Source: a virus. Taken from it: DNA of 64,000 nt. Below, piece after piece: positions 374 to 63,761 of the stretch; positions within the stretch are counted from its first letter, which is position 1, and every line of letters starts with the position of its first letter. The DNA lies in IMG/VR virus record IMGVR_UViG_3300038620_000134, positions 1-64,000 of that record. One strand, written 5' to 3'. A program made the position numbers and the translations under genes. The notes under the pieces were generated by a model that saw only the letters and a list, made by a program, of their open reading frames with translations, did not search any database and was not told where the DNA came from.

Positions 374-1909
374 TTAGAACAGCTTTATTTTACCATTAAC
401 ATCAGAAACAGCTTTAACATCCTCTTCTGTAAACTGTTTATCATTTTTAAAACAAAAGAAAGCACCCCCAACTTCTTCAGGTGCACCTTTCAGGGATGTT
501 AAATTATTACGAGAACACATAAATCTACCCCCAACTTCTTCAGGTGCACCTTCCAGGGATGTTAATTTATTATCAGAACAATTAAAATCACCCCCAACTT
601 CTTCAGGTGCACCTTCAAGAGTTGTTAATTTATTAACAGGGCAAACAAAATCACCCCCAACTTCTTCAGGAGCACCTTCAAGGGATGTTAAATTATTATT
701 AGTGCAAACAAAATCACCCCCAACTTCTTCAGGAGCACCTTCAAGGGATGTTAATTCGTTATCATAACACATAAAACTACCCTCAACATTGTCAGGAGCA
801 CCTTCAAGGGATGTTAAATTATTATTAGAACACATAAAATTACCCCCAACATTGTCAGGAGCACCTTCAAGGGATGTTAAATTATTATTAGAACACATAA
901 AATCACCACTGACGTGTCCAAATTTATATTTTTTTATAACTTTTTTATAGTCCTCTGACTTATAATTAAAATTTACATCCCCATTAACATTAACAATGTT
1001 ATTTTTTGATATATTATAATTACCAGAAACAACATTTGAAAAAATATAATCTGTTTCATTAAAAATTGTTTTGTTATCATACGAATAAAGCCCATCGATA
1101 ACATCTCTAGTGAAAAATATAGCTTGTTCTGGTTCATTAGGATGAATGAACCAATCCTCTCCTTCATCAATAAATCCTTCAACACCCAAATCAAGATAAA
1201 TCTTTGTTTTAAGCTGTGGTCCGTTACTTTTCCCTAAAGCCAATAAAGCCAAATCAACATAATTATTTACAAAAAACCAAAGTATTTTTGTATACGAATC
1301 ATTATTTAAAGCATCTTCTAATTTTTCCCACTTTTCTTCAGGAACTTTTGAAATAACGTTAATATCGCTCACCAAACTATCTAAGTTAAAAAAAACTTCT
1401 GAAATATTTTCATTTATATAATTATACAATAATTCAAAAGCATCATCTGGAAGATTGTTTTTTAGTTTTTTGTTTGATTTACATACATCATAGAATTCTT
1501 TAATATGGTTAAAAGCATTTGAATTTTCAGTTAAAATTTTATTTTGTTTAATTTTATTTTGTTTAATTTTAAATAAATGAATTGTATTAGATTTATCAGG
1601 AACAAAAGGATAAACTTTTTCCAAACGTTTTTTTATTTCATCATTACTACTCTTATGTGTTAAATTTTTAGTTATTAAATCATAATCTTTTTTACTTAAC
1701 GGATATGCATAATATCCAGCAGGAGTATTATAACCAGTAAAAGGATTTATAAATGTTACAGTATCTTCTTCTCGAAATGAAATAAACCAGTTATCCAAAC
1801 TATCATTTCCAATAGTGTTTTTAATAAATTCAATAAAGTTTATTTTTCTATTAATTTCTGGATTTCTTCGTTTCTCTGTTAAATAGTCTTGAAAGGACTT
1901 TATTCGCAT
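374..1909 (-). CDS. LRR protein (7 full 21-aa repeats + cap); N-terminal domain shared with 10230..11186
   Basis: GGxFxCxxNxLTSLEGAPEEV repeats with a 63-bp period. N-terminus MRIKSFQDYLTE. WFISFR/TFINPFT/TPAGYY/IHPNEP motifs. Confidence 0.9.
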   Translation of the reverse strand: MRIKSFQDYLTEKRRNPEINRKINFIEFIKNTIGNDSLDNWFISFREEDTVTFINPFTGYNTPAGYYAYPLSKKDYDLITKNLTHKSSNDEIKKRLEKVYPFVPDKSNTIHLFKIKQNKIKQNKILTENSNAFNHIKEFYDVCKSNKKLKNNLPDDAFELLYNYINENISEVFFNLDSLVSDINVISKVPEEKWEKLEDALNNDSYTKILWFFVNNYVDLALLALGKSNGPQLKTKIYLDLGVEGFIDEGEDWFIHPNEPEQAIFFTRDVIDGLYSYDNKTIFNETDYIFSNVVSGNYNISKNNIVNVNGDVNFNYKSEDYKKVIKKYKFGHVSGDFMCSNNNLTSLEGAPDNVGGNFMCSNNNLTSLEGAPDNVEGSFMCYDNELTSLEGAPEEVGGDFVCTNNNLTSLEGAPEEVGGDFVCPVNKLTTLEGAPEEVGGDFNCSDNKLTSLEGAPEEVGGRFMCSRNNLTSLKGAPEEVGGAFFCFKNDKQFTEEDVKAVSDVNGKIKLF

Positions 1910-7685: not shown

Positions 7686-9449
7686 TTAAACTATTATTTC
7701 ACCTTTAACATCAGAAACCGCTTTAACATCTTCTTTTGTAAATTTTTCTTCGTTAAGTCTACACTCAAAATTACCCCCAACTTCTTCAGGAGCACCTTCA
7801 AGGGAAATTAAATTGTTACGGTTACAATCAAAATCACCCCCAACTTCTTCAGGAGCACCTTCAAGGGAAGTTAAATTATTATTAGAACAATCAAAGTTAC
7901 CTCCAACTTCTTCAGGTGCACCTTCCAGGGATGTTAATTTATTAGCAGTACATTCAAAAGAATTTCCAATGTACTCAGGTACACCTTTAAGGGATGTTAA
8001 TTTGTTTTCAGTACAATCAAAAGAACCTTCAACGTGCTTAGGTGCACCTTTAAGAGATTTTAAGTTGTTTTCAGTACAATCAAAATCACCCCCAACTTCT
8101 TCAGGAGCACCTTCAAGGGAAGTTAAATTATTATTAGAACAATCAAAGTTACCTCCAACTTCTTCAGGTGCACCTTCCAGGGATGTTAATTTATTATAGT
8201 AACAATTAAATCCACCCCTAATTTTTTTAGGCGCGCCTTCAAGAGTTTTTAGTTTATTATATTTACAAATAAAATCACGTCCAACTTTTTCAGGTGCACC
8301 CTCAAGCGATGTTAAATTGTTTTCATCACAATAAAAATCACCCCCAACTTCTTTAGGTGCACCTTCCAGGGATGTTAATTTATTAAAAAAACAATAAAAA
8401 TCACCCCCAACTTCTTCAGGAGCACCTTTCAAGGATGTTAATTTATTATCACGACATTCAAAGTTGCCACTAACATATCCAAACTTATAGTTTTTTGTAA
8501 TTTTTTTGTAAAATATGGGTTCATCTTCTAATTTCAAATTACCCTTAATATTAATTGTGTTTCCATCTATTTCAAAAGTTCCTTCAACAAAATCATTTAG
8601 TATAGCTTCAACTGAAGCGTTTAGATTATATTCACATCTTCCCTCGTCATATAACCCTTTAAGTTGTTTGTATTTAGTTTTATTTAGTTTTTGATTCTTT
8701 TCAAGCCATGCATCAATGGTTTCTTTGAAACCTTTAACTGGTTCTCCTTTAACTTCATCTACTTCTTTATCTCTAAATAAAGCAATTTCTTCACCGTTTT
8801 CACTGACGTATGGTTTAATCAAAACCCGTGCAACAGGATTATTAATATTCAAGTCATCTTTTTTAATAAGATATGCAATTATAGTTCCCTTTTTAACATC
8901 TTCCATTATATGAAATGTTTGACCTCCAGTATCTAAGTCCATACAACTAGTCCAGCCTCTATTCGTGCTCATTCCTGCAATATCATAAGGGTGTCTTGAA
9001 ATCACTACAAGATAGTTATCTTGATTCCTTTGAGTTGATTTCTTATTAAGTTCTTTTTCGTAATCACTTTTTAACTTTTGAACATTTATATCACTTTTTT
9101 TAAGACCACTATCTTTCACTAAAACTTTTACAATACTGGTTGTTCTTTTATCCGAAACTGCTAGGTTTTGGTTAAAATTTTCAACTTCATAGTTTGTATA
9201 TTCTAAGGCTTTATTAATTCTATCTCTAACATCTTTGCTTATCTTTTGTTTTTGTTCTTCAGACTCTTCGAGTTCTAAGTAAAGTCTATATTTGGGTTTC
9301 CCATTTTCTTTCTTTCCAAAAATATCTTGATAGAATTTTTCACCACCTGCTTCTTTCCATGTTTTAATATATGGTTTTGCTTGACTTGGATGAAGTGCTT
9401 CATCAATGGAAGTCGAATTAATGTATTCTTGAAAAGATTTTAAGCGCAT
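7686..9449 (-). CDS. LRR protein paralog (11 repeats + cap)
   Basis: Same N-terminal domain; 11 GAP-type repeats counted. Confidence 0.9.
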   Translation of the reverse strand: MRLKSFQEYINSTSIDEALHPSQAKPYIKTWKEAGGEKFYQDIFGKKENGKPKYRLYLELEESEEQKQKISKDVRDRINKALEYTNYEVENFNQNLAVSDKRTTSIVKVLVKDSGLKKSDINVQKLKSDYEKELNKKSTQRNQDNYLVVISRHPYDIAGMSTNRGWTSCMDLDTGGQTFHIMEDVKKGTIIAYLIKKDDLNINNPVARVLIKPYVSENGEEIALFRDKEVDEVKGEPVKGFKETIDAWLEKNQKLNKTKYKQLKGLYDEGRCEYNLNASVEAILNDFVEGTFEIDGNTINIKGNLKLEDEPIFYKKITKNYKFGYVSGNFECRDNKLTSLKGAPEEVGGDFYCFFNKLTSLEGAPKEVGGDFYCDENNLTSLEGAPEKVGRDFICKYNKLKTLEGAPKKIRGGFNCYYNKLTSLEGAPEEVGGNFDCSNNNLTSLEGAPEEVGGDFDCTENNLKSLKGAPKHVEGSFDCTENKLTSLKGVPEYIGNSFECTANKLTSLEGAPEEVGGNFDCSNNNLTSLEGAPEEVGGDFDCNRNNLISLEGAPEEVGGNFECRLNEEKFTKEDVKAVSDVKGEIIV

Positions 9450-23880: not shown

Positions 23881-23968
23881 AGGGGGATGGCAGAGCGGTC
23901 GATTGCACCGGTCTTGAAAACCGGCAGCCAGCTACGCTGGTTCGGGGGTTCGAATCCCTCTCCCCCTG
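23881..23968 (+). tRNA. tRNA-Ser(TGA)
   Basis: AGGGGGA/TCCCCCT acceptor stem, CCGGT-CTTGAAA-ACCGG anticodon arm, long variable arm, GTTCGAATC. Confidence 0.93.
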
Positions 23969-24001
23969 CTTATGGTTTTTAACTAAAAATTAAAGTTTTG
24001 C

Positions 24002-24032
24002 TTGACACCTTCAAAAAGATTTACTAGCTTTA
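24002..24032 (+). promoter_or_regulatory. Early promoter TTGACA-N17-TAGCTTTA
   Basis: Same architecture as seven other sites; probably drives 24067 and possibly tnpB plus the array. Confidence 0.65.
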
Positions 24033-24066
24033 CACCATTCCCGAAATTATTAAACTATTATAAGTT

Positions 24067-24687
24067 ATGACTAACACAACTAAATTTCCAATCGAAGAGC
24101 TTTACGCTGAGCCGGAAAAGTTTTTACTAGCAAGTGAAAATTACGATTTAGGTTACCCTGAGCTTTACTATTTAGCATATGGTAGCCTAATGAAGTGGCA
24201 TTCTTGTGAGGCTCATTTGGTCTTGGTGAAGTTAAACTCAAATAAATACGGGCTTGGAGAGTCTGATTTAGAAGAATTTGAGCTTCGCCTTAAAATGGTG
24301 GCTAGTCTTTATCAGAACTGGCAAAATGAGCTGCAAGATTATTGGCAGTTATGTGACGAGTTCGGGGCCAGATATTCTATCACTCTAAGTGATGTTTATA
24401 AAAATTCGCTTCCGTTAGATGACGAAGGCGAACACGAAATTGAAAAAGTTAAAAACTTGAGTATTGAAGCTGCTAAAAGAGCTATTAAAGCAGAAAACTT
24501 AGCGGCGGTTAGATGGCTAAACCAGTTCTGGTTGGAGGCTGATATTTGGAAACAATTGAATTCTAAACCAGATTCTAAAAGAGTTGTACAAGCCCGCTGG
24601 TTAAAAGAGCTTTTCGTGTTTGATCTTGTTGGAGAAGATAAGTATCCTATGTGGAAAAAACCATTATCGTCTTTTTCTGAACTTTAA
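24067..24687 (+). CDS. Hypothetical protein directly upstream of tnpB
   Basis: 206-aa ORF, no recognised motif. Confidence 0.75.
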   Translation: MTNTTKFPIEELYAEPEKFLLASENYDLGYPELYYLAYGSLMKWHSCEAHLVLVKLNSNKYGLGESDLEEFELRLKMVASLYQNWQNELQDYWQLCDEFGARYSITLSDVYKNSLPLDDEGEHEIEKVKNLSIEAAKRAIKAENLAAVRWLNQFWLEADIWKQLNSKPDSKRVVQARWLKELFVFDLVGEDKYPMWKKPLSSFSEL

Positions 24688-24783
24688 TTGTTTTAATTAT
24701 GCCAGACTTTACCAAAAATACGAAAAAGAAAATCAAAAACTAAAAAAGAATTATAAAGCTTTTTTAGTGATTATTGGCCTATT

Positions 24784-25974
24784 ATGAGTGAGCAAAAGAC
24801 AATTTATAGAGCCTACAAGTTTCGATTAAAGCCTACTAAAGAGCAAGCTGAACTGCTCGACAAGACTTTCGGCTGCGTACGGCTTATTTACAACTATATG
24901 CTGGCCCAGCGTAAGGAGCATTATGAAAAGACTGGTAAATCTCCGAATGTCTACGAGCAATCACGCCAACTCCCAGAATTAAAACGGACTGAAGAATTTG
25001 GCTTTTTGAAGGAAATCGACTCAGCTGCGTTGGTTAGTGCTGTTTGGGATTTGGACGATGCTTATCAAAGATTTTTCAAAAAACATGGTAAGTATCCTAA
25101 GTTTAAGTCTAAGCACAAAAGTAAAAAAAGTTATAGTTCCTTTTCTAACACGTGCAAAATAAAAGGTGATCGTGTATATGCGCCTAAGTTTAAGAAACAG
25201 GGTATAAAAGTCATTGCACACCGTCTTATTGTGGGCAAGACTAAGACCATGACCTTCAGCAAGACACCTAGCGGGAAGTATTACGTTTCTATCTTTGTAG
25301 AAGAGCTATATACGCCCCCCGAACCTACGGGTGAAGCTGTTGGTATTGACCTAGGTATAAAAGAGCTTGCTGTTACGTCGGACGGTCAGCGTTACGAGAA
25401 CGCGAAATATTTGCAGAAATACGAGAAAAAACTGGCAAAAGCTCAAAAAGATTTAGCCCGTAAAAAGGGAAGTAAGAAATGTGAGGAAAAAAGCAATAGC
25501 TATATCCGTCAAAAACAGAAAGTCGCCAAGCTGCATGAGAAGGTAGCAAATTCGAGAAAAAACTTGCTGCACGAAATATCGCGGGAAGTCGTAGATAACT
25601 ATGATACGATAGCTTTGGAAGACTTGAATGTTCAAGGTATGAAGCAAAACCGGAAACTGGCCAAAAATATCAGCGACGTTAGTTGGGGTATGTTCAAAGA
25701 AATGCTAAAATACAAGGCAGAACGAGATAATAAACAGGTTGTGGCGATAAACCGATATTATCCAAGCAGTAAAACCTGCCATATTTGCGGGGATGAGAAG
25801 GAAAATCTAAGTCTCTCGGAGCGAGAGTGGACGTGTTCAAACGGCCACGTCTTAGACCGGGACCTGAATGCAGCAATAAATATATTAAATCAAGGATTAC
25901 TAAAATTAGAATCGGCAGCAGATGTCGATAACACGGGTGGAGTCGAAGTAAATCCTGTTTCGACAGGTGTTTGA
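24784..25974 (+). CDS. tnpB: TnpB (IS200/IS605 family) RNA-guided nuclease, catalytic triad intact
   Basis: YRAYKFRLKPT...FGCVR.IYN N-terminus; RuvC GIDLG, ALEDL, DRDLNAA; Zn finger CHIC...CSNGH; no tnpA nearby. Confidence 0.95.
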   Translation: MSEQKTIYRAYKFRLKPTKEQAELLDKTFGCVRLIYNYMLAQRKEHYEKTGKSPNVYEQSRQLPELKRTEEFGFLKEIDSAALVSAVWDLDDAYQRFFKKHGKYPKFKSKHKSKKSYSSFSNTCKIKGDRVYAPKFKKQGIKVIAHRLIVGKTKTMTFSKTPSGKYYVSIFVEELYTPPEPTGEAVGIDLGIKELAVTSDGQRYENAKYLQKYEKKLAKAQKDLARKKGSKKCEEKSNSYIRQKQKVAKLHEKVANSRKNLLHEISREVVDNYDTIALEDLNVQGMKQNRKLAKNISDVSWGMFKEMLKYKAERDNKQVVAINRYYPSSKTCHICGDEKENLSLSEREWTCSNGHVLDRDLNAAINILNQGLLKLESAADVDNTGGVEVNPVSTGV

Positions 25975-26020
25975 CTATGAAACTCGAAGCTCTTTCAAAT
26001 TTGAAGAGGGAATACCTGAC
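25912..26020 (+). ncRNA. omegaRNA (reRNA) scaffold overlapping the tnpB 3' end
   Basis: Stems TCGGCA/TGTCGA, CGGGT/ACTCG, AGTCGAA/TTTGACT and CCTGT-TTCG-ACAGG; terminal hairpin ending in TGAC; layout typical of IS605 right ends. Confidence 0.75.
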
Positions 26021-26043
26021 GCAAGGAAGCGAGGAAAAACGGG

Positions 26044-26303
26044 GTCGGAGTCCCTCTGCAATTTTGAGAGGGTATCTGACTCATAGATAATTTTTATTTT
26101 ATTTATTCAGTAAAAAGTCGGAGTCCCTCTGCAATTTTGAGAGGGTATCTGACTTAATCCGCTTATTTATGTTACGAACTGATCACAAAAAAAGGTGAGA
26201 GTCCCTCTAACACTTTGAAAGGGTATCTGACAAAGAAGTGCTTGAGGCTTGCGATGCCAGAATTAAGTGAGAGTCCCTCTAACACTTTGAAAGGGTATCT
26301 AAT
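26044..26303 (+). CRISPR. Mini CRISPR array: 4 x 37-bp repeats of two variants, spacers 36/41/35 bp
   Basis: GTCGGAGTCCCTCTGCAATTTTGAGAGGGTATCTGAC at 26044 and 26117; GTGAGAGTCCCTCTAACACTTTGAAAGGGTATCTGAC at 26195; the same variant ending TAAT at 26267; spacers unique. Confidence 0.88.
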
Positions 26304-26394
26304 GTTGACAAGGTAAAATGAAAAATTGAACATGAAAGAAGAAGAGCGCTATTAGAAATAATAAGATATATTAAACCACCAAAATAAAAGTACT

Positions 26395-27702
26395 ATGAAT
26401 ATGGAATACCCTGAAATTTATGCGTTTTCTGGAAAAATAGGTTCTGGAAAAAACTTCATGGCAGAAAAAATATTTCCTGAATATCTTTCTTCTAAGTCCA
26501 CACTTGTAATGGCATTTGCCGATGTATTTAAAGTTAGGGCTATCATTGAAGAGGGTTTAGATGAAAAGAAAGTATTTGAAGGGCCGAAAGATGAGGAAAC
26601 ACGTAGAATCCTTCAAATTTATGGCACTGAAGAAGGACGTGATAAAAAAGGAGAAGATATATGGTGCAGGTATTTGGAACAGTATATTAGATTATATTCT
26701 CAAAGAAAATCTATTGAAAGGGTTATTATAACAGATTTACGTTTTGAAAATGAAGCAAACTATTTAAGATCACTTGGAGCTTATTTGATTCGTGTAGAAG
26801 CACCTAATAGAAACAAAAGTGCACTTGAACAAGAAGCGTCCAATAAAGATGGCAACGTTCAATATGATGTTTATAATAAAATTTCGCAACACCCTAGTGA
26901 AACAGGTTTAGATAACTGGACAGATTGGGATTTAGTAATTCATAATGATTACGAAGATTCTCCTTATATCCACATTCGTGATTGGGTAGTAAATCACCGC
27001 GAATCTAAACATTTTTATTCGCATGTTGTTTTGATAGATCTTGATGATACGGTTGTTAGTTGTGGTCAAAAATATCATGAAAAAATTGACAAAGCATGTG
27101 ATCTTATTATCAAGGAAAAATCTAAAAATTTAACTAAAAAACAAGTAAAAAATACTTTTAAAGAGTTGGATTCTGATCGCCTTAATTCTTTTTATGATCG
27201 CTATCGGCTTTCTAAAAAATTAAAAGAGTTGGGAGTTTACTATAACGTATCAAGTTCTACACTAGAAAAATTATATGAGCTGGGTATTCAAGTTTATAAA
27301 GATACGTTTGAATATCTTTCAGGGTCTTATGAAGCACTAAATTTACTTTGGAAAAATTTGGATAATAATGATAAATTGATTATCTTTACACTTGGAAGAC
27401 GCGAAGATCAAGTTCGAAAAATACACGAACTTGGGCTTTTTGATATTGAGCATGAAATTGTTGAAACAAGAAAATCTGATGATGTTTACCAACAAGTTAA
27501 AAAAGATTATCCAGCTAATAAATATACTATGATTGGAGATTCTTTGGAAAATGATGTTTATCCTGCATTATCAGCAGACTTTAACAATATTTATTGGGTA
27601 AATAGTTATTCTAATCAAAGCTCTTTGTATGATTATTTTGTTGTGAAAGACTTACAAGAGGCTGTTTATCATTTTTTAAACCTAAAAGATAAAGTAACAT
27701 GA
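26395..27702 (+). CDS. Deoxynucleoside monophosphate kinase fused to a HAD hydrolase
   Basis: SGKIGSGK, FAD..K, R.ILQ.YGTE and ITDLRFENE; then IDLDDTV...MIGDSLENDV. Confidence 0.88.
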   Translation: MNMEYPEIYAFSGKIGSGKNFMAEKIFPEYLSSKSTLVMAFADVFKVRAIIEEGLDEKKVFEGPKDEETRRILQIYGTEEGRDKKGEDIWCRYLEQYIRLYSQRKSIERVIITDLRFENEANYLRSLGAYLIRVEAPNRNKSALEQEASNKDGNVQYDVYNKISQHPSETGLDNWTDWDLVIHNDYEDSPYIHIRDWVVNHRESKHFYSHVVLIDLDDTVVSCGQKYHEKIDKACDLIIKEKSKNLTKKQVKNTFKELDSDRLNSFYDRYRLSKKLKELGVYYNVSSSTLEKLYELGIQVYKDTFEYLSGSYEALNLLWKNLDNNDKLIIFTLGRREDQVRKIHELGLFDIEHEIVETRKSDDVYQQVKKDYPANKYTMIGDSLENDVYPALSADFNNIYWVNSYSNQSSLYDYFVVKDLQEAVYHFLNLKDKVT

Positions 27703-29053: not shown

Positions 29054-29126
29054 GGATGTGTAGCTCAATTGGTAGAGCATCTGACTGTTAATCAGAAGGT
29101 TGTTGGTTCAATCCCAACCACATCCG
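29054..29126 (+). tRNA. tRNA-Asn(GTT)
   Basis: GGATGTG/CACATCC acceptor stem, TCTGA-CTGTTAA-TCAGA anticodon arm, GGTTCAATCCC T arm. Confidence 0.92.
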
Positions 29127-29311
29127 CTACAGTAACTGACCGATGAAGAACCGGGGATGTGCCGAAGAAGTACTGGAGAAAATCAAACAGTTGGTATTAG
29201 CAAGATATGTTCTTTTTTATAAAGTTAGTATACCCGTTGAAAGTGGATAGCAATGGATAGCAATTTTAGACAAAATTAGAGCTGATTGTGATACACTAAA
29301 TTTTAACTATA

Positions 29312-56052: not shown

Positions 56053-57573
56053 ATGCGAATAAAATCTTTCCAAGAATACATTAATTCGACTTCCATTGAT
56101 GAAGCACTCCATCCAAGTCAAGCAAAACCATATATTAAAGCATGGAAAGAAGCTGGAGGTGAAAAATTTTATCGTGACATCTTTGGAAAGAAAGAAAATG
56201 GAAAACCCAAATATAGACTTTACTTGGAGCTTAAAGAATCCAAAGAGCAGAAACAAAAGATAAGCAAAGATGTTAGGGATAGAATCAATAAAGCTTTAGA
56301 ATATACAAATTATGAAGTTGAAGATTTTAATCAAAATTTAGCAATTTCAAAAGATGGTGAAAATACTAAAAAAGTAACAAGTGAACTTTCAAAAAATAAA
56401 AAATTAAAAAAACAAGATGAAATTAATATAGATAAACTCCTTCAAGATTACAGTGAGGAACTAAGTAAAAAGTCAACCCAAAGAGAACAAGACGATTATC
56501 TTGTAGTAATTTCACGGCATCCATACGATATTGCGGGGATGAGCACCGATAGAGGTTGGACTAGTTGTATGGACTTAGATACTGGAAGTCAAAAATTCTA
56601 TGTAATGGAAGATGTTAAAAAGGGAACAATTATAGCTTATTTAATTAAAAAAGATGACTTGAATATTAATAATCCTGTTGCACGGATTTTAATAAAACCT
56701 TATGTTAGTGGGGACGGTGAAGAAATTGCACTGTTTAGAGATAAAGAAGTAGATGAATTTAAAGGAGAACCAGTTAAGGGATTTAAAGAAACAATTGATG
56801 CTTGGCTAGAAAAGAATCAAAAGTTAAGTAAAACCAAGTATTATCAACTTCAAGGATTGTATAAAGATGGAAAGTGTGAATATAATCCAGATGCTCCAGT
56901 TAAAGCTATACTAAATGATTTTGTTAAAGGAACTTTTGAAGTAGATGGAAACACAATTAGTGTTAATGGGAATGTAAATTTACGTAGAAAACCTAAAGTT
57001 TTTAAAAAAATTACAAAAAACTATAAGTTTGGATATGTTAGTGGTAATTTTAATTGTTCTAATAATAATTTAACATCCCTTGAAGGTGCACCTGAAGAAG
57101 TTGGGGGTTATTTTATTTGTGAGTATAACAAATTAACATCCCTTGAAGGTGCCCCTGAAAAAGTTGGGGGTAGTTTTATGTGTTCTCGTAATGGATTAAC
57201 ATCCTTGGAAGGTGCACCTGAAGAAGTTGTAAGTGGTTTTATTTGTGATGATAATAATTTAACATCCCTTAAAGGTGCCCCTGAAAAAGTTGGGGGTAGT
57301 TTTATTTGTTATAGGAATGGTTTAACATCCCTTGAAGGTGCACCCGAAAAAGTTGGAGGTGAATTTGATTGTAGATTTAATCAATTAACATCCCTTGAAG
57401 GTGCACCTGAAAAAGTTGGAGGTGATTTTTATTGTAGATTTAATCAATTAACATCCCTTGAAGGTGCACCTGAAAAAGTTGGAGGTGATTTTTATTGTGG
57501 TAAGAATAAAAAAGATTTTACAAAAGAAGATGTTAAAGCTGTTTCTGATGTTGAAGGTGAAATAAAAGTTTAA
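56053..57573 (+). CDS. LRR protein paralog (7 repeats + cap)
   Basis: Same N-terminal domain with one divergent block (ISKDGENT...DYSEE). Confidence 0.9.
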   Translation: MRIKSFQEYINSTSIDEALHPSQAKPYIKAWKEAGGEKFYRDIFGKKENGKPKYRLYLELKESKEQKQKISKDVRDRINKALEYTNYEVEDFNQNLAISKDGENTKKVTSELSKNKKLKKQDEINIDKLLQDYSEELSKKSTQREQDDYLVVISRHPYDIAGMSTDRGWTSCMDLDTGSQKFYVMEDVKKGTIIAYLIKKDDLNINNPVARILIKPYVSGDGEEIALFRDKEVDEFKGEPVKGFKETIDAWLEKNQKLSKTKYYQLQGLYKDGKCEYNPDAPVKAILNDFVKGTFEVDGNTISVNGNVNLRRKPKVFKKITKNYKFGYVSGNFNCSNNNLTSLEGAPEEVGGYFICEYNKLTSLEGAPEKVGGSFMCSRNGLTSLEGAPEEVVSGFICDDNNLTSLKGAPEKVGGSFICYRNGLTSLEGAPEKVGGEFDCRFNQLTSLEGAPEKVGGDFYCRFNQLTSLEGAPEKVGGDFYCGKNKKDFTKEDVKAVSDVEGEIKV

Positions 57574-58294: not shown

Positions 58295-61200
58295 ATGGCA
58301 GAAGTCGCAACTAATTTTAACGTTAATCTTGATAGATACAAAGCATCTGGCGTATATTTAGCTGAAATAGATCGTTCAGCCGAACAACAACAAACTGCAA
58401 GCCCAACAACTCGTGTTGTAATTGGTTTTTCCCGTAAAGGCCCCGTTATGACACCTGTTTATTTGGAACGCAAAGAAACAGCACGTGATGTTTTTGGTGA
58501 AATTGATGAATCACTTGAAAGAAAAGGGTCATTTTTTCACAGAACTATTGATACTTGCCTGAATGAAGGACCTGTTTTTGCAATTAACATGATTCCATTT
58601 GTTAATGAAGTTGATGACTTAGGCAATCCAACTGCCGATGCTGATGTTGCTCCATATAGGTCTTTTTCAACTGATGTTACTGGTGATAACGGACGCGGTG
58701 AATGGGACACACCCACACCATCTCCAGATGTTTTTCCATTCAATCATCCTCGGTTTTCGGGTTACAATCTAAGACTTTATACAAGTTACTATAACAAAGA
58801 ACGTTTTTGGTTTCCAAGTGTAGATAATCTTTTAGCAACTCGCGTTGATGAAGATAAAGTTACAAATCTAAATGGTAGAGTAATTGGTGGAAAAATTCTT
58901 AACTTTGTTAATCTGGGCAAAACACCTATAACTGTTTTTGTAAGAAAAGCACCATCAAATAAAACTGATGGTTTTAGATTAACTGCTCGTGAATGGTATG
59001 AAGATAACGAAGATATTCCACCTTTTGTTAAAGAGTCTGATTATATATCAGATTACTTTTTAGAAGTAATATTAGTAAAAGGTAATTTTGGAAAGTCTTC
59101 ATATGAAGATTTAAGTAATGATCAGTTTTTAAATCCCTATTTTACAGAAAATGGAATAATTGCTGATAAGTTTGATGAACTACTTGATAGCAATTTAATT
59201 CCTGTAATTTCTCGATTTGTTGGAACCATTATTCCAAACTTCCGAGATAAGCAAGATATTGACTGGTTTATAGAAGATATAATTAACCGCCAATTTGCAA
59301 GAACTGGATTATTTTGTGCTGTTGACACAAATGAACTTGATCGCTATGAAACAGGGCAAAATGATTACTATGTAGATTTTGTAGGTCACAGACTTTTAGA
59401 CACAAGTAACTTTACTGAAAATAATCCAGACTGGAATGGTAACATTGACTTCTTAAGCTACAGAACTCCATTCAAAGAGAATCTTAAATATGAACAAGTT
59501 TCTTTGCCTATTAATATGGCCAATCCGAATTCTATTTTTGCTGGTGATGCTAATTTTACCAGTGATAGTGTTTCTGAATTAAGTAATGATGATTTAATTT
59601 CTAATAATGTTATTGAATTTTTAGAAAATCAAAATTCCGATAGCAGATTTTCATTTTACATTTATGATACAATAGATCAAGCAACAGGTAGTTATTACGC
59701 CAATTCACTTTTTGATAAGCTTAGTAATTTAACTCCTAATGATTCTTATATTGTTTTAGATATTGTTTTAGATGACAATAATGTAAATACACCACCTGTA
59801 ACAACTAAGCTTTACACTCAAGTTAAAAAGCTACTTCAACAAAATGTTGGAAATCAAACTGCCATTAAAGTTGAAGTTGAAAACTTGACTGATGTTAGTG
59901 GAAGCACTAACATGGAACCATATACAAATATAAGTTTAGAAAGTGGTGCCTTTACCCATCTGGTTTTTGAAAGAGATGGTTTTAATGCTGGTATTGGATC
60001 ATCTCCCACCTTCTTATATGCGAATAAAAATTCAAAATTATATCAAGATTGGAAAAATGGTGTTATTGCCGATGGTGATAAAGTGTTCCATGATATTGGC
60101 TCCACCAATGATACATATTTTGATGAATTTTACACCATTGAGTTTGAACAAACAAAAGACCCAAACTTTAAGGATCTTGTTTTGAAAGTTAACTTCTTTA
60201 ACCCGAATGGAAGTTCCTTTAACATTTCTAATCTTATTTTCCAAGCTGGTGAAAACTATGTTAAAAATTCAAATAATCCTGATGCAACAAGTCCAGCAGC
60301 TTTAACACCAAATCAAGCTGGTTACTTAAATGTTGTTTCTAATAGTGGAAGTCTTAATACTTATGTTGATTATCAAGCATTTCCCGATACCAGTGTTAAA
60401 AATCGAGTGTTAATACCTGATATACCAGCATGGAGAGATGATGCACGACCTGGTAACTTTATTCGGGCTAAGGATCGTAATGATAATCCCATCCTTGCCC
60501 GTATTACTAGAGTTCGTGGTGGTTATGAATACAATGGAATGAAATGGTTAAATGTAGAAAGTGTTGCAAGAATTGAACCATTTGAAGTTTTTGGAACACC
60601 CGAAACTACACCACAGGGATATACAATAAAAGGAACTGTAGAAATTTGGCGCCCTATTGAAAATAGTATCAAGTATATTGATGGTACTTATTTGAATGGA
60701 CTTCAACTAAATGATAATCACATACCAAAACCGAATGAAAGTTATGTTAGAGAATTTTATAAGCTGTTAGAAGATACGAATCTTAAAGAAGCTCTTTCAG
60801 ATAAAAATCAAATTACATGGAGGTATGTAGTAGATACATTTAACCAAGGACTTGATGAAATGTCTGGCGGTAAACAATATCTTACACGTCTTGCTAAAAG
60901 CCGTTGGAAAGCATTGGCATTTGTTAATGCTCCATCCATTCAAGAATTTATTGATAGTACTGACCCAATTTTTACTGAACTGCCAACGCCTAGAAGCCCA
61001 CGCCCAACGCTAAAAACTGAATACATAGCAACGGGTGGTAACTTAGATCAAAATCCAAACAGGATTTATTCGTTGCCAGATTTTGATAATGGTGCGAGTC
61101 ATTCTGGTTTCTTTATTCCAAATATTATAATTCGAGATGGTAACAAAACAGTTTCTGTTCCACCTGCTGCATACATTTCAAATCTTTATGTAAGAAAGTT

Positions 61201-61744
61201 CAAAAATGGTAATCCATTTCAAGCAATTGGTGGTAATAGAAAGGGTAGAATTACTGGTGCTAACATATCTGGATTAGAGTATGACTTTACCAAATCAGAT
61301 AGGGCCAATATAGAACCCTTTGGACTAAATCCAATGGTTAAACGACCAGATGGGTCTATTGTTGTAATGGGTGAAAGAACAGCGTATCAACGCGTTAATT
61401 CTCAACTAAACGGATTGCATGTTCGGGATGTTCTTATTTCAATTGAAATTCAAATTGAGAATATATTGGAAACTTATCTTTTTGAACCCAATGATGATGC
61501 AACAAGAAACGCAATTGAAAATGAAATTAGTTCATATCTTGAAACTGTTTTTGTAAATGATGGCATTCGACAAAATTATGAGGTGAAAATGGATTCTTCA
61601 AACAATGGGCCGGATGTTATTTCAGAAAACTTTGGCATTGTTGATGTTAAAGTTGAACCCGTTGGTGCTATTTACAAATATCTTAACAGGGTTTCTATTT
61701 TACCAAGTGGTGGACTAAATTCATCTGGATTTCAACCCGCTTAA
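58295..61744 (+). CDS. Contractile tail sheath protein (T4 gp18-like) with large insertions
   Basis: SGVYLAEIDRS, GFSRKGPV..P, VPPAAY, G.RKG.I, GLNP, GERT, LHVRDVL and LFEPND..TR. Confidence 0.93.
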   Translation: MAEVATNFNVNLDRYKASGVYLAEIDRSAEQQQTASPTTRVVIGFSRKGPVMTPVYLERKETARDVFGEIDESLERKGSFFHRTIDTCLNEGPVFAINMIPFVNEVDDLGNPTADADVAPYRSFSTDVTGDNGRGEWDTPTPSPDVFPFNHPRFSGYNLRLYTSYYNKERFWFPSVDNLLATRVDEDKVTNLNGRVIGGKILNFVNLGKTPITVFVRKAPSNKTDGFRLTAREWYEDNEDIPPFVKESDYISDYFLEVILVKGNFGKSSYEDLSNDQFLNPYFTENGIIADKFDELLDSNLIPVISRFVGTIIPNFRDKQDIDWFIEDIINRQFARTGLFCAVDTNELDRYETGQNDYYVDFVGHRLLDTSNFTENNPDWNGNIDFLSYRTPFKENLKYEQVSLPINMANPNSIFAGDANFTSDSVSELSNDDLISNNVIEFLENQNSDSRFSFYIYDTIDQATGSYYANSLFDKLSNLTPNDSYIVLDIVLDDNNVNTPPVTTKLYTQVKKLLQQNVGNQTAIKVEVENLTDVSGSTNMEPYTNISLESGAFTHLVFERDGFNAGIGSSPTFLYANKNSKLYQDWKNGVIADGDKVFHDIGSTNDTYFDEFYTIEFEQTKDPNFKDLVLKVNFFNPNGSSFNISNLIFQAGENYVKNSNNPDATSPAALTPNQAGYLNVVSNSGSLNTYVDYQAFPDTSVKNRVLIPDIPAWRDDARPGNFIRAKDRNDNPILARITRVRGGYEYNGMKWLNVESVARIEPFEVFGTPETTPQGYTIKGTVEIWRPIENSIKYIDGTYLNGLQLNDNHIPKPNESYVREFYKLLEDTNLKEALSDKNQITWRYVVDTFNQGLDEMSGGKQYLTRLAKSRWKALAFVNAPSIQEFIDSTDPIFTELPTPRSPRPTLKTEYIATGGNLDQNPNRIYSLPDFDNGASHSGFFIPNIIIRDGNKTVSVPPAAYISNLYVRKFKNGNPFQAIGGNRKGRITGANISGLEYDFTKSDRANIEPFGLNPMVKRPDGSIVVMGERTAYQRVNSQLNGLHVRDVLISIEIQIENILETYLFEPNDDATRNAIENEISSYLETVFVNDGIRQNYEVKMDSSNNGPDVISENFGIVDVKVEPVGAIYKYLNRVSILPSGGLNSSGFQPA

Positions 61745-61937: not shown

Positions 61938-63761
61938 ATGCGAATAAAATCTTTCCAAGAATACATTAATTCGAGTTCCATTGATGAAGCACTCCATCCA
62001 AGTCAAGCTAAATCTTATATTAAAGCATGGAAAGAAGCTGGAGGTGAAAAATTTTATCGTGACATCTTTGGAAAGAAAGAAAATGGAAAACCCAAATATA
62101 GACTTTACTTAGAACTCGAAGAGTCTGAAGAACAAAAACAAAAGATAAGTAAAGATGTTAGAGATAGAATCAATAAAGCTTTAGAATATACAAACTATGA
62201 AGTTGAAAATTTTAATAAGAATATAGCGGTTTCGGATAAAAGAACAACCAGTATTATAAAAGTTTTAATGAAAGATAGTGGTCTTAAAAAGAGTGATATA
62301 AATGTTCAAAAGTTAAAAAGTGATTACGAAAAAGAACTTAATAAGAAATCAACTCAGAGAAAACAAGATAACTATCTTGTAGTGATTTCGCGTCATCCAT
62401 ACGATATTGCTGGAATGAGCACGGATAGAGGTTGGACTAGTTGTATGGACTTAGATACTGGAGGTCAAACATTTCATATAATGGAAGATGTTAAAAAGGG
62501 AACTATAATTGCATATCTTATTAAAAAAGATGACTTGAATATAAACAACCCTGTTGCACGGGTTTTAATAAAACCTTATGTTAGTGAAGATAGTGAAGAA
62601 ATTGCTTTATTTAGAGATAATTATAAAGAAATTAAAGGAGAACCAGTAAAGGGATTTAAAGAAACAATTGATGCTTGGCTAGAAAAGAATCAAAAGTTGA
62701 GTAAAAGTAAGTACAAACAACTTAAAGGACTATATGACGAGGGAAGATGTGCTTATAATCCAGATGCTTCAATTGAAGCTATATTAAATGATTTTGTTAA
62801 AGGAACTTTTGAAGTAGATGGAAACACAATTAGTGTTAATGGGGATGTAAATTTACGTAGAAAACTTGAAGTTTTTAAAAAAATTACAAAAAACTATAAG
62901 TTTGGATATGTTAGTGGTGATTTTTACTGTTCTAATAACGACTTAACTTCTCTTGAGGGTGCTCCTGAAGAAGTAGGTGGTAATTTTAATTGTGAGTATA
63001 ACAAATTAACATCCCTTGAAGGTGCACCTGGAGAAGTTGGGGGTGATTTTGATTGTAAATTTAATAATTTACGAACACTTGAAGGTTCACCTGAAAAAGT
63101 TGGGAGTAATTTTAGTTGTATATTTAATAAATTAACAACTCTTGAAGGTGCACCTGGAGAAGTTGGGGGTGATTTTGATTGTTCCCATAACAATTTAGCA
63201 TCCCTTGAAGATGCACCTAAAAAGGTTGGGGGTGAATTTAATTGTCTTGGTAATAGTTTAACATCCCTTAAAGGTGCCCCTGAAAAAGTTGGGGGTAAAT
63301 TTAACTGTAGTGGAAACCAATTAACATCACTCGAAGGTGCTCCTGAAAAGGTTGGGGATAATTTTATTTGTAGATCTAATAAATTAACTTCCCTTGAGGG
63401 TGCTCCTGAAAAGGTTGGGGGTAGTTTTATTTGTTATAGGAATGATTTAACATCCCTTAAGGGCACACCTAAAAAGGTTGGGGATGATTTTTATTGTATG
63501 AATAATAAATTAACATCCCTTGATGGAGGACCTGAAGAAGTTGGGGGTCGTTTTGATTGCTCTCATAATAAATTAACTTCCCTTGATGGTGCTCCTAAAA
63601 AAATTGGAAGTGATTTTAGTTGTACGTTTAACAAATTAACATCTCTTCAAAGTGCACCCGAAAAAGTTGGAGGTGATTTTGATTGTAGATTTAATAGAGA
63701 AAATTTTACAAAAGAAGATGTAAAAGCTGTTTCTGATGTTGAAGGTGAAATAAAAGTTTAA
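61938..63761 (+). CDS. LRR protein paralog (12 repeats + cap)
   Basis: Same N-terminal domain; 12 repeats counted. Confidence 0.9.
   Translation: MRIKSFQEYINSSSIDEALHPSQAKSYIKAWKEAGGEKFYRDIFGKKENGKPKYRLYLELEESEEQKQKISKDVRDRINKALEYTNYEVENFNKNIAVSDKRTTSIIKVLMKDSGLKKSDINVQKLKSDYEKELNKKSTQRKQDNYLVVISRHPYDIAGMSTDRGWTSCMDLDTGGQTFHIMEDVKKGTIIAYLIKKDDLNINNPVARVLIKPYVSEDSEEIALFRDNYKEIKGEPVKGFKETIDAWLEKNQKLSKSKYKQLKGLYDEGRCAYNPDASIEAILNDFVKGTFEVDGNTISVNGDVNLRRKLEVFKKITKNYKFGYVSGDFYCSNNDLTSLEGAPEEVGGNFNCEYNKLTSLEGAPGEVGGDFDCKFNNLRTLEGSPEKVGSNFSCIFNKLTTLEGAPGEVGGDFDCSHNNLASLEDAPKKVGGEFNCLGNSLTSLKGAPEKVGGKFNCSGNQLTSLEGAPEKVGDNFICRSNKLTSLEGAPEKVGGSFICYRNDLTSLKGTPKKVGDDFYCMNNKLTSLDGGPEEVGGRFDCSHNKLTSLDGAPKKIGSDFSCTFNKLTSLQSAPEKVGGDFDCRFNRENFTKEDVKAVSDVEGEIKV

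What the first reader, a model, noticed from the sequence alone, without database searches (positions are those of the whole stretch)
24784..26303. Phage TnpB fused to a CRISPR array whose repeat matches the omegaRNA 3' hairpin: candidate TnpB-to-Cas12 intermediate
Seen: a 396-aa TnpB with intact RuvC D/E/D and no tnpA, cas1 or cas2 in the window. An IS605-type right-end scaffold ends in CTCGAAGCTCTTTCAAATTTGAAGAGGGAATACCTGAC (25983-26020). After a 23-nt guide come four 37-bp repeats such as GTCGGAGTCCCTCTGCAATTTTGAGAGGGTATCTGAC, separated by unique 36/41/35-nt spacers. The scaffold end aligns with the repeat (TCG.AG, CTCT...AGAGGG hairpin, TA.CTGAC), so it acts as a degenerate repeat 0. Known: TnpB is the Cas12 ancestor and its guide follows the omegaRNA 3' end. 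Inference: the phage has domesticated a compact multi-guide nuclease in which the omegaRNA is split into a tracr-like scaffold plus crRNAs, probably aimed at competing phages or the host.
Basis: partly seen in the sequence, partly recalled or inferred. Interest (0 to 1): 0.95.

Follow-up and report, generated by a model that had tools for sequence, protein, structure and literature searches.

The report
Phage TnpB with self-derived guide array
A large uncultured phage carries a transposon-type RNA-guided DNA cutter (TnpB) whose guide RNA's last 37 letters have been copied four times behind it with new guide-like inserts, a young example of the already published step from transposon nuclease to CRISPR-Cas12.

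Summary
A 396-aa ISDra2-like TnpB (24784-25974) sits in a myovirus-like record of 81.7 kb from tidal-flat metagenomes. Alignment with relatives shows that its omegaRNA ends at 26020. After a 23-nt guide come four 37-nt repeats with unrelated 35-41-nt spacers.

The repeats are copies of the last omegaRNA module: the helix-3 strand, the stem-4 hairpin and the pseudoknot strand. The scaffold loop (CAG, against GAA in relatives) and the tails of R0-R3 (CTG, against TTC) have changed together. This ties the repeats to this scaffold.

Against function:
- R3 and R4 are degenerate.
- Spacer lengths are irregular.
- No target was found.
- No Cas1, Cas2 or TnpA lies in the record.
- Of 150 relatives scanned, only one distant locus (Segatella copri) has an array.

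Best reading (about 0.55): a young, immobile TranC-like system in which scaffold and array crRNAs assemble in trans. Rival: inert duplication debris.

The kind is in print (TranC, phage-borne CauTranC9, Cas12r). This scan has also noted phage TnpB mini-arrays on other DNA: 95 notes holding my search words, in at least 51 genomes (8 shown). I rate it a new member of a known kind, interest about 0.5.

The parts
24784..25974 (+). tnpB, 396 aa, ISDra2-like, RuvC D189/E279/D360 and zinc-finger cysteines present. The ORF stops 46 nt before the omegaRNA end.
   Evidence: Pfam. PDB: ISDra2 TnpB 8h1j E 3e-65 over residues 9-395. Invariant columns. Single copy in the record. Stop position.
25896..25982 (+). 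omegaRNA scaffold, the tracr-like part. Stem 1 is 25912-25918 with 25922-25928. The pseudoknot loop CAG is 25919-25921. The helix-3 5' strand CGGGT is 25934-25938. Helix 4 is 25941-25946 with 25976-25981. An inner hairpin is 25954-25967. The 5' limit of the RNA was not determined.
   Evidence: Alignment A2 of 43 sequences. Pair counts: 87.4% of cells paired against 34-45% when slid, and 0 of 500 shuffles reach it.
25983..26020 (+). R0, the omegaRNA 3' module: helix-3 3' strand CTCG, stem 4, and tail ending CCTGAC. It is homologous to the right end of related elements. Its tail is 2 nt longer than the family's.
   Evidence: Similarity to relatives stops exactly after this position.
26021..26043 (+). 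G0, the 23-nt cis guide of the omegaRNA, 57% G+C.
   Evidence: No exact 20-mer in IMG/VR.
26044..26080 (+). R1, 37 nt. Folds as one long hairpin (outer stem GUCGGA/UCUGAC plus stem 4).
   Evidence: MFE -19.4 kcal/mol, z -5.5.
26081..26116 (+). S1, 36 nt, 11% G+C. Nucleotides 10-27 are the antisense of the phage's own recurrent promoter/leader motif.
26117..26153 (+). R2, identical to R1.
26154..26194 (+). S2, 41 nt.
26195..26231 (+). R3, the variant repeat. It matches R1 at 30 of 37 positions. Stem 4 has one mismatch, the helix-3 strand is lost, and the pseudoknot triplet is kept.
26232..26266 (+). S3, 35 nt, 43% G+C.
26267..26303 (+). R4, the terminal degenerate repeat. Its tail TCTAAT keeps only 2 of 3 pseudoknot pairs.

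Best explanation
This is an immobilised ISDra2-type TnpB kept by a large phage. It has a complete omegaRNA and, behind it, a short array born from that omegaRNA's own last 37 nt.

Inferred mechanism.
- The tnpB mRNA runs on through the array. No terminator-like site lies on the + strand.
- The scaffold part (about 25896-25982) serves as a tracr-like RNA.
- Each repeat supplies the stem-4 hairpin, the pseudoknot strand and, in R1 and R2, part of the helix-3 strand.
- Scaffold plus repeat-spacer RNA therefore rebuild an omegaRNA-like fold in trans and load TnpB with S1 and S2, less surely S3, besides the cis guide G0.

The likely use is conflict with other mobile elements or phages. That part is inference only.

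Shown here: the anatomy, the homology of repeat and omegaRNA end, and the matched pseudoknot change. Inferred: transcription, processing, trans assembly and cleavage.

A sub-variant cannot be excluded: the strongly self-folding R1 and R2 might act without the scaffold, as reported for Cas12r.
For: 1. The protein is a full-length, catalytically intact TnpB.

2. In 109 of 158 relatives the omegaRNA ends in a GGGTAGTTCAC-like motif (up to 2 mismatches), after which similarity stops. The window's R0 aligns to it.

3. The ISDra2-type fold described in passages of PMC10097598 fits the family. On 43 sequences 87.4% of cells pair against 34-45% for slid partners, 22 of 29 pairs show changes on both sides, and 0 of 500 shuffles reach the score.

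4. In the pseudoknot the window is the only row with C-G at pair 27-162 (GC 38, CG 1) and one of two rows with G-C at pair 29-160. R1, R2 and R3 carry the same CTG as R0. The repeats therefore fit this scaffold.

5. R0 and R1 are closer to each other (29 identical columns) than either is to any of 97 relatives' ends (best 25-26).

6. R1 and R2 are identical although their flanks are unrelated. The terminal repeat is the degenerate one.

7. The locus is the same, where covered, in contigs of three tidal-flat runs.

8. Precedents work at the bench: a clade 9 TranC representative and Cas12r (passages).
Against: - No RNA data. No RNA holder was listed among the runs.
- No protospacer was found for G0, S1, S2 or S3.
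- Helix 3 can re-form in trans at only 3 contiguous pairs (of 5) for R1 and R2, and at 1 of 5 for R3 and R4 (read).
- R1 and R2 fold into a -19.4 kcal/mol hairpin that hides the pseudoknot strand.
- R3, R4 and R0 fold no better than shuffles (z -1.3, -0.6 and +0.4).
- Spacer lengths of 36, 41 and 35 nt are irregular.
- S1 is low-complexity and looks like the phage's own promoter region.
- The array is not conserved. Of the 149 related loci scanned besides the distant locus L191, none has one. No close relative exists (best 55-56% identity).
- The relatives in A2 were chosen by their conserved tail. The window's uniqueness at the pseudoknot is therefore biased by that selection.
Confidence: 0.55

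Rival explanations
1. Inert debris. The four units are by-products of recombination, slippage or past transposase action at the right end, carried along when the element entered the phage. TnpB uses only its cis omegaRNA and G0, if it is used at all.
For: - R3 and R4 are degenerate in stem 4 and in the helix-3 strand, and R4 also in the pseudoknot.
- Spacer lengths are irregular.
- No targets were found.
- No array lies in 149 of the 150 relatives scanned.
- No adaptation genes are present.
- A frameshifted copy of the gene exists on another contig.
Against: - Plain tandem duplication would copy the spacers too, yet the spacers are unrelated.
- R1 and R2 are 37 of 37 identical, with sharp borders.
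- The lineage-specific pseudoknot triplet is kept in R1-R3.
- The array is unchanged, where covered, in three runs.
Confidence: 0.27
2. DNA-level or regulatory role. One option is that the repeats are spare right ends, each a hairpin with a cleavage-site tail, that a Y1 transposase supplied in trans could use, giving nested transposon forms. Another is that the promoter-like motif in S1 on the minus strand drives antisense RNA across R1, G0 and the omegaRNA to shut TnpB off late in infection.
For: - Each repeat keeps the right-end hairpin and tail.
- R1 and R2 pair end to end.
- S1 holds a perfect copy of the phage's promoter/leader motif on the minus strand, followed by an ATG.
Against: - No Y1 transposase lies in the record and there is only a single tnpB copy.
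- The ATG in S1 lies 5 nt further from the motif than in the genuine gene starts.
- No data on transcription.
Confidence: 0.1
3. Borrowed array. The repeats come from a host CRISPR system and R0 only resembles them by convergence.
For: Other phage TnpB loci noted by this scan were read as using host-type arrays (unchecked notes). I also recalled an outline resemblance to a Bacteroidota class 2 repeat type. That is a lead only.
Against: - No Rfam CRISPR-DR family or any other family matches at E up to 10, apart from two chance hits.
- The repeat pattern with up to 3 mismatches gives only scattered hits in 93 of 401 Bacteroidota genomes, never an array, at about the rate of the reversed control.
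- There were 2 single hits in IMG/VR and 57 in metagenomes. None of the 59 loci had a second site or a TnpB.
- The repeat aligns with the family's omegaRNA end module by module.
Confidence: 0.05

Closest known systems
TranC, transposon-CRISPR intermediates (Jin et al., Cell 2025; paper not held; known here from passages in PMC13565253, PMC13639567 and bioRxiv 10.64898/2026.03.27.714800)
   Same: - A TnpB-derived effector of IS605 type.
- A short downstream array without cas1 or cas2.
- Repeats of 32-38 bp and about 3-20 repeats.
- A right-end RNA read as split into tracr and crRNA.
   Different: - Clade membership could not be tested because the sequences are in supplements, which are closed.
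- The only TranC sequence seen here, LaTranC, matches only residues 231-369 (E 9e-33), whereas ISDra2 TnpB matches the full length (E 3e-65).
- Here the complete cis omegaRNA and its guide are still in place.
- The repeat holds the whole last hairpin.
- The array is not shared with any relative found.
CauTranC9 (bioRxiv 10.64898/2026.03.27.714800; passages only)
   Same: - Encoded by a Caudoviricetes genome.
- TnpB-sized (clade mean 414 aa) without enlarged REC or WED domains.
- A 38-bp repeat and 5 repeats.
- No accessory cas genes.
   Different: - Its spacers match phages and it cut in a PAM screen. Neither is shown here.
- It is said to lack the ISDra2 C-terminal domain. The window's protein aligns to ISDra2 up to residue 397 of 410, though it is about 15 aa shorter than its close relatives.
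- Sequence relatedness is unknown.
Cas12r of Thermus Lalka phages (bioRxiv 10.64898/2026.04.20.719267; abstract and passages)
   Same: [quoted passage not shown]
- Proposed conflict between mobile elements.
   Different: - 564 aa, 29-bp repeats, 31-33-nt spacers.
- Works with crRNA alone.
- From a thermophile branch.
- Function shown at the bench.
ISDra2 TnpB-omegaRNA (PMC10097598, PMC8612924)
   Same: - Protein architecture.
- omegaRNA fold, with the pseudoknot between the stem-1 loop and the nucleotides just before the guide.
- The guide follows the right end.
   Different: - No TnpA, a single copy, and no recognisable left end.
- The ORF is uncoupled from the last 46 nt of the RNA.
- Four extra copies of the 3' module.
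L191, Segatella copri iAP1412 locus found here
   Same: - A TnpB of the same broad family (40% identity).
- Four repeats of about 36-38 nt at 64-66-nt spacing, starting 51 nt after the stop.
   Different: - It sits in another subclade.
- Its repeat is not palindromic.
- Its spacers are about 28 nt.
- It is in a bacterial genome.

Membership tests
TranC / TnpB-derived type V intermediates | Effector is a TnpB-like RuvC nuclease of IS605 or IS607 descent with an intact D/E/D triad | tested here: met
TranC / TnpB-derived type V intermediates | Adjacent array of at least 3 repeats of about 32-38 bp with unique spacers, downstream of the gene | tested here: met
TranC / TnpB-derived type V intermediates | Right-end RNA functionally split: array crRNAs are used together with a tracr-like scaffold | not testable with these tools
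   Only sequence fit could be judged. The pseudoknot triplet is matched. Helix 3 is partly matched in R1 and R2 and not in R3 and R4.
TranC / TnpB-derived type V intermediates | The gene-array link is conserved across a clade | tested here: not met
   Of 150 related loci scanned, only L191 has an array, and it lies in another subclade. No relative closer than 55-56% identity exists, so the test is weak.
TranC / TnpB-derived type V intermediates | Falls inside a published TranC clade | not testable with these tools
   Clade sequences are in closed supplements. It is not close to LaTranC.
IS200/IS605 OMEGA element (mobile TnpB) | omegaRNA overlapping the gene's 3' end with the conserved fold and a sharp right end | tested here: met
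IS200/IS605 OMEGA element (mobile TnpB) | Y1 TnpA present, or several copies in the genome | tested here: not met
   No Y1_Tnp match and one tnpB copy. The record is about 31% complete.
IS200/IS605 OMEGA element (mobile TnpB) | Recognisable left end and TAM | tested here: inconclusive
   The upstream 160 nt does not align with relatives. Only 96 nt lie between the upstream gene and tnpB.
Adaptive type V CRISPR-Cas | Adaptation genes cas1 and cas2 | tested here: not met
Host-type CRISPR array (curated repeat families) | Repeat matches a known CRISPR-DR family or arrays in candidate hosts | tested here: not met

The most novel reading that the evidence does not exclude
The array was born in this phage lineage without Cas1-Cas2. 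Only the 37-nt 3' module of the element's own omegaRNA was copied each time, together with a new guide, by a capture route not yet described. One candidate route is recombination between right-end copies after break repair. In this reading S1 was taken from the conserved late promoter/leader/start region of phages of its own kind. The phage would then aim TnpB at the gene starts of related competitors, while a 5-nt difference in the seed spares its own genes.
Probability: 0.12. Interest if true: 0.8.

Novelty: new member of a known kind. Interest (0 to 1): 0.5.

Why it matters
The full omegaRNA with its own guide is still in place. The array repeats are plainly its last module, and scaffold and repeats share a lineage-specific pseudoknot change. 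This makes the locus a clean natural snapshot of how an array can start from an omegaRNA. That step was proposed in PMC10691335 and PMC10097598 and is documented for TranC.

The system is 396 aa and is directly testable. One can ask whether a TnpB-sized enzyme accepts its 3' RNA module in trans, and how spacers arise without Cas1-Cas2.

It does not open a new category. Phage-borne cases are in print and are common in this scan.

Tried and rejected
Searches that found nothing.
- Near or distant DNA relatives of 24000-27000 in GenBank phages: none.
- Synteny through the downstream kinase gene: one 41% relative only, no empty-site comparison possible.
- Left end and TAM: the upstream alignment was uninformative.
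- Spacer targets in GenBank phages: only chance hits, E at least 4.
- Spacer targets in IMG/VR by exact 20-22-mers of S1, S2, S3 and G0: none. Matches with mismatches would have been missed.
- Own-genome spacer matches: only the S1 motif, plus a 12-nt exact match of S3.
- Repeat pattern in IMG/VR (2 loci) and metagenomes (57 loci): single chance hits, no second site, no TnpB nearby.
- Rfam: nothing relevant.

Checks that were inconclusive or negative.
- RNAalifold alone found only stem 4 and an alternative pairing of the tail. I therefore wrote the structure by hand, following the ISDra2 description, and counted pairs.
- Sigma-70-type promoter scan: 1 site against 4.5 expected, so uninformative.
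- 13-nt and 10-nt inverted matches between the spacers and the tnpB start region: judged to be chance.
- 'R1 is more canonical than R0': rejected overall, since mean identity to relatives is 21.1 against 20.8. Only the 11-nt tail length is canonical.

Sequencing runs. No RNA holder was listed. Parts of the stretch were without cover in X2-X4.

Not done: structure prediction and the representative-library search. The PDB sequence match seemed enough.

Supplements of the TranC-related papers are closed. They may hold the CauTranC9 sequence and clade lists that would settle membership.
Full report
Where it lies. The window is the first 64 kb of an 81,724-nt IMG/VR virus record. The record is linear, about 31% complete and 30% G+C.
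- PHROGs finds a tail sheath (58295-61744), a DNA helicase and a dNMP kinase, the last being the gene just downstream at 26395-27702.
- Contigs of four tidal-flat metagenome runs hold the stretch or parts of it.
- The tnpB region has 37-44% G+C against 25-33% around it. This fits a horizontal origin.
- The closest cellular TnpBs are from Bacteroidota, at 48-53% identity.

The observation.
- The repeat core occurs four times in the window and never in 100 shuffles. It occurs nowhere else in the record.
- R1 and R2 are identical. R3 and R4 differ at 2 of 37 positions. The two pairs differ at 7 of 37, an A,A,B,B pattern.
- The spacers are unrelated to one another.

The protein. The 396-aa ORF has the three TnpB Pfam domains.
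- It aligns over its whole length with ISDra2 TnpB (8h1j, E 3e-65). It matches LaTranC only over the RuvC part (E 9e-33).
- D189, E279, D360 and three zinc-finger cysteines are invariant in 21 of 21 homologues.
- The best homologue among 5.8 billion clusters is 55-56% identical. Its own 90% cluster holds only two fragments from a 1,230-nt contig, which read as a frameshifted copy.

The RNA. In 109 of 158 related loci the region after tnpB ends in a GGGTAGTTCAC-like motif (up to 2 mismatches), after which similarity stops. The window's ...GGGAATACCTGAC (to 26020) aligns with it.

I wrote an ISDra2-type structure for the family: stem 1, two long-range helices, stem 4, and a pseudoknot between the stem-1 loop and positions -5 to -3. 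I took this from the description in PMC10097598 (passages) and from the alignment.
- On 43 sequences 87.4% of cells pair, against 34-45% when partners are slid by 1-3 columns.
- 22 of 29 pairs show changes on both sides, and no shuffle of 500 reaches the observed values.
- RNAalifold on its own gave only stem 4 and an alternative tail pairing.
- Caveat: the relatives were chosen by their conserved tail, so variation in the tail is under-sampled.

What the repeat is. Read against this structure, the 37-nt repeat has three parts.
- The 3' strand of helix 3 (GTCG in R1 and R2, CTCG in R0).
- The whole stem-4 hairpin.
- The 11-nt tail that carries the pseudoknot strand.

The family's loop and tail triplets are GAA and TTC. 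The window has CAG (25919-25921) and CTG, so two of the three pairs have changed on both sides. R1, R2 and R3 carry the same CTG. The repeats, with T at position -6, could add a fourth pair with A25922. R0 cannot.

R0 and R1 share 29 of 40 aligned columns. That is more than any of 2,943 random genomic 38-mers or 3,000 shuffles, and more than either shares with any of 97 relatives' ends (best 25-26). The array therefore descends from this lineage's own omegaRNA end. Its repeats fit this scaffold.

A minor contig in run X1 (depth 4 against 11.4) changes R0's tail to the repeat's TCTGAC. It also carries two changes in G0.

Points against a working array.
- Helix 3 can form in trans at only 3 contiguous pairs (of 5) for R1 and R2, and at 1 of 5 for R3 and R4.
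- R3 and R4 have a mismatch in stem 4.
- R4's tail keeps 2 of 3 pseudoknot pairs.
- R1 and R2 fold into a -19.4 kcal/mol hairpin (z -5.5) that closes over the pseudoknot strand. R3, R4 and R0 fold no better than shuffles.
- Spacer lengths vary: 36, 41 and 35 nt.
- No Cas1, Cas2 or Y1 transposase lies in the record, and there is no second scaffold copy.
- No RNA run was available.

Spacers. No significant match was found in GenBank phages. No exact 20-22-mer was found in IMG/VR for S1, S2, S3 or G0.

- Nucleotides 10-27 of S1 are the exact antisense of AATAAATAAAATAAAAAT.
- That 18-mer recurs at 4 other sites in the record with at most 1 mismatch, and at 25 other sites with at most 3. Many of these sites end at or next to a start codon.
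- Next to the perfect copy (80727-80744) the match continues into the start codon, except for 5 extra nt in S1's guide-proximal part.
- S1 thus looks like a copy of a late-type promoter/leader/start region of a phage of this kind, and it would not match the phage's own sites in the seed.
- The same claim for S2 rests on one 8-mer. I judge it weak.

Relatives.
- Of 79 IMG/VR relatives, none has spaced repeats next to the gene. Two hits lay more than 700 nt away.
- A more tolerant scan of 150 viral and cellular loci flagged three. Two are tandem repeats lying 260-740 nt past the stop. One is real: L191 of Segatella copri, with 40% identity and four repeats of 36-38 nt at 64-66-nt spacing.
- I built a FastTree of 139 unique proteins. 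Rows with an HSP start above residue 15, with stops, or shorter than 340 aa were dropped. The window sits on a long branch inside a 26-tip clade (support 0.96). L191 sits with three array-less Collinsella loci (0.911). Their common clade holds 30 tips. The two arrays look independent.
- The repeat itself is not found elsewhere. There were 2 single hits in IMG/VR and 57 in metagenomes, none with a second site or a TnpB. There was no Rfam family. In 401 Bacteroidota genomes only scattered hits appeared, at about the rate of the control.

What is known.
- PMC10691335 (passages) lists 40 V-U branches. It notes that arrays usually lie downstream, and it proposes an origin by serial duplication of omegaRNA segments.
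- PMC10097598 (passages) proposes both a split and a condensed-and-duplicated route.
- TranC (Jin et al. 2025, not held) is described in PMC13565253 and PMC13639567 (passages).
- bioRxiv 10.64898/2026.03.27.714800 (passages) reports the phage-borne, TnpB-sized CauTranC9.
- bioRxiv 10.64898/2026.04.20.719267 (abstract and passages) shows a working phage Cas12r that needs no tracrRNA.
- This scan has noted phage TnpB mini-arrays on other DNA: 95 notes holding my search words, in at least 51 genomes, of which 8 were shown.

Verdict. The finding is real. It is a tidy, apparently very young and lineage-private case of a known kind. Its particular merits are:
- the retained cis omegaRNA and guide;
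- the palindromic repeat that holds the whole last hairpin;
- the shared pseudoknot change.

Function and targets are open. I put 0.55 on a working trans-assembled multi-guide TnpB, 0.27 on inert debris, and the rest on DNA-level, regulatory or borrowed-array readings.

Noticed in passing
window 23881-23969: tRNA-Ser (tga) about 800 nt upstream of tnpB. Metagenome contigs of other organisms pile up on it (depth up to about 1,900), with many loose ends on both sides. tRNA-Asn lies at 29054-29127.
   Followed up: partly
genome-wide, e.g. 4082, 36526, 49395, 56031 (+), 80727 (-): A recurrent motif AATAAATAAAnnAAAAAT ending at or next to start codons. It is probably the phage's late-type promoter plus a very short leader. 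A perfect antisense copy lies in spacer S1.
   Followed up: partly
window 459-907, 7760-8449, 57062-57499, 62943-63696: Long arrays of 63-nt tandem repeats inside large ORFs. They encode 21-aa leucine-rich-like units. Earlier notes of this scan read them as a variable protein family.
   Followed up: no
window about 25321-25326 (poly-C tract in tnpB): Two protein fragments (P0122, P0123) from a 1,230-nt JGI contig are the same TnpB broken by a frameshift that starts at this C run. This could be a sequencing error, decay, or phase variation.
   Followed up: partly
window 25972-26020: In many relatives the tnpB ORF ends at the TAG inside the conserved GGGTAGTTCAC, 5 nt before the RNA end. Here a TGA stops it 46 nt earlier, so the last RNA module is free of coding constraint and the protein is about 15 aa shorter.
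   Followed up: partly
L191 3782-4015 (Segatella copri iAP1412): A TnpB relative (40% identity) followed by four repeats of 36-38 nt with about 28-nt spacers. It is a bacterial TranC-like locus with a non-palindromic repeat.
   Followed up: partly
window 26015, 26031, 26039: A minor contig in run X1 (depth 4) carries C>T in R0's tail, which makes it identical to the array repeats' tail. It also carries two changes in the cis guide G0.
   Followed up: no
window 26172-26333 (-) and 25997-26084 (-): Small minus-strand ORFs (53 aa and about 29 aa) run through the repeats. The second starts at the ATG of the promoter-like copy in S1. They are probably not genes.
   Followed up: no
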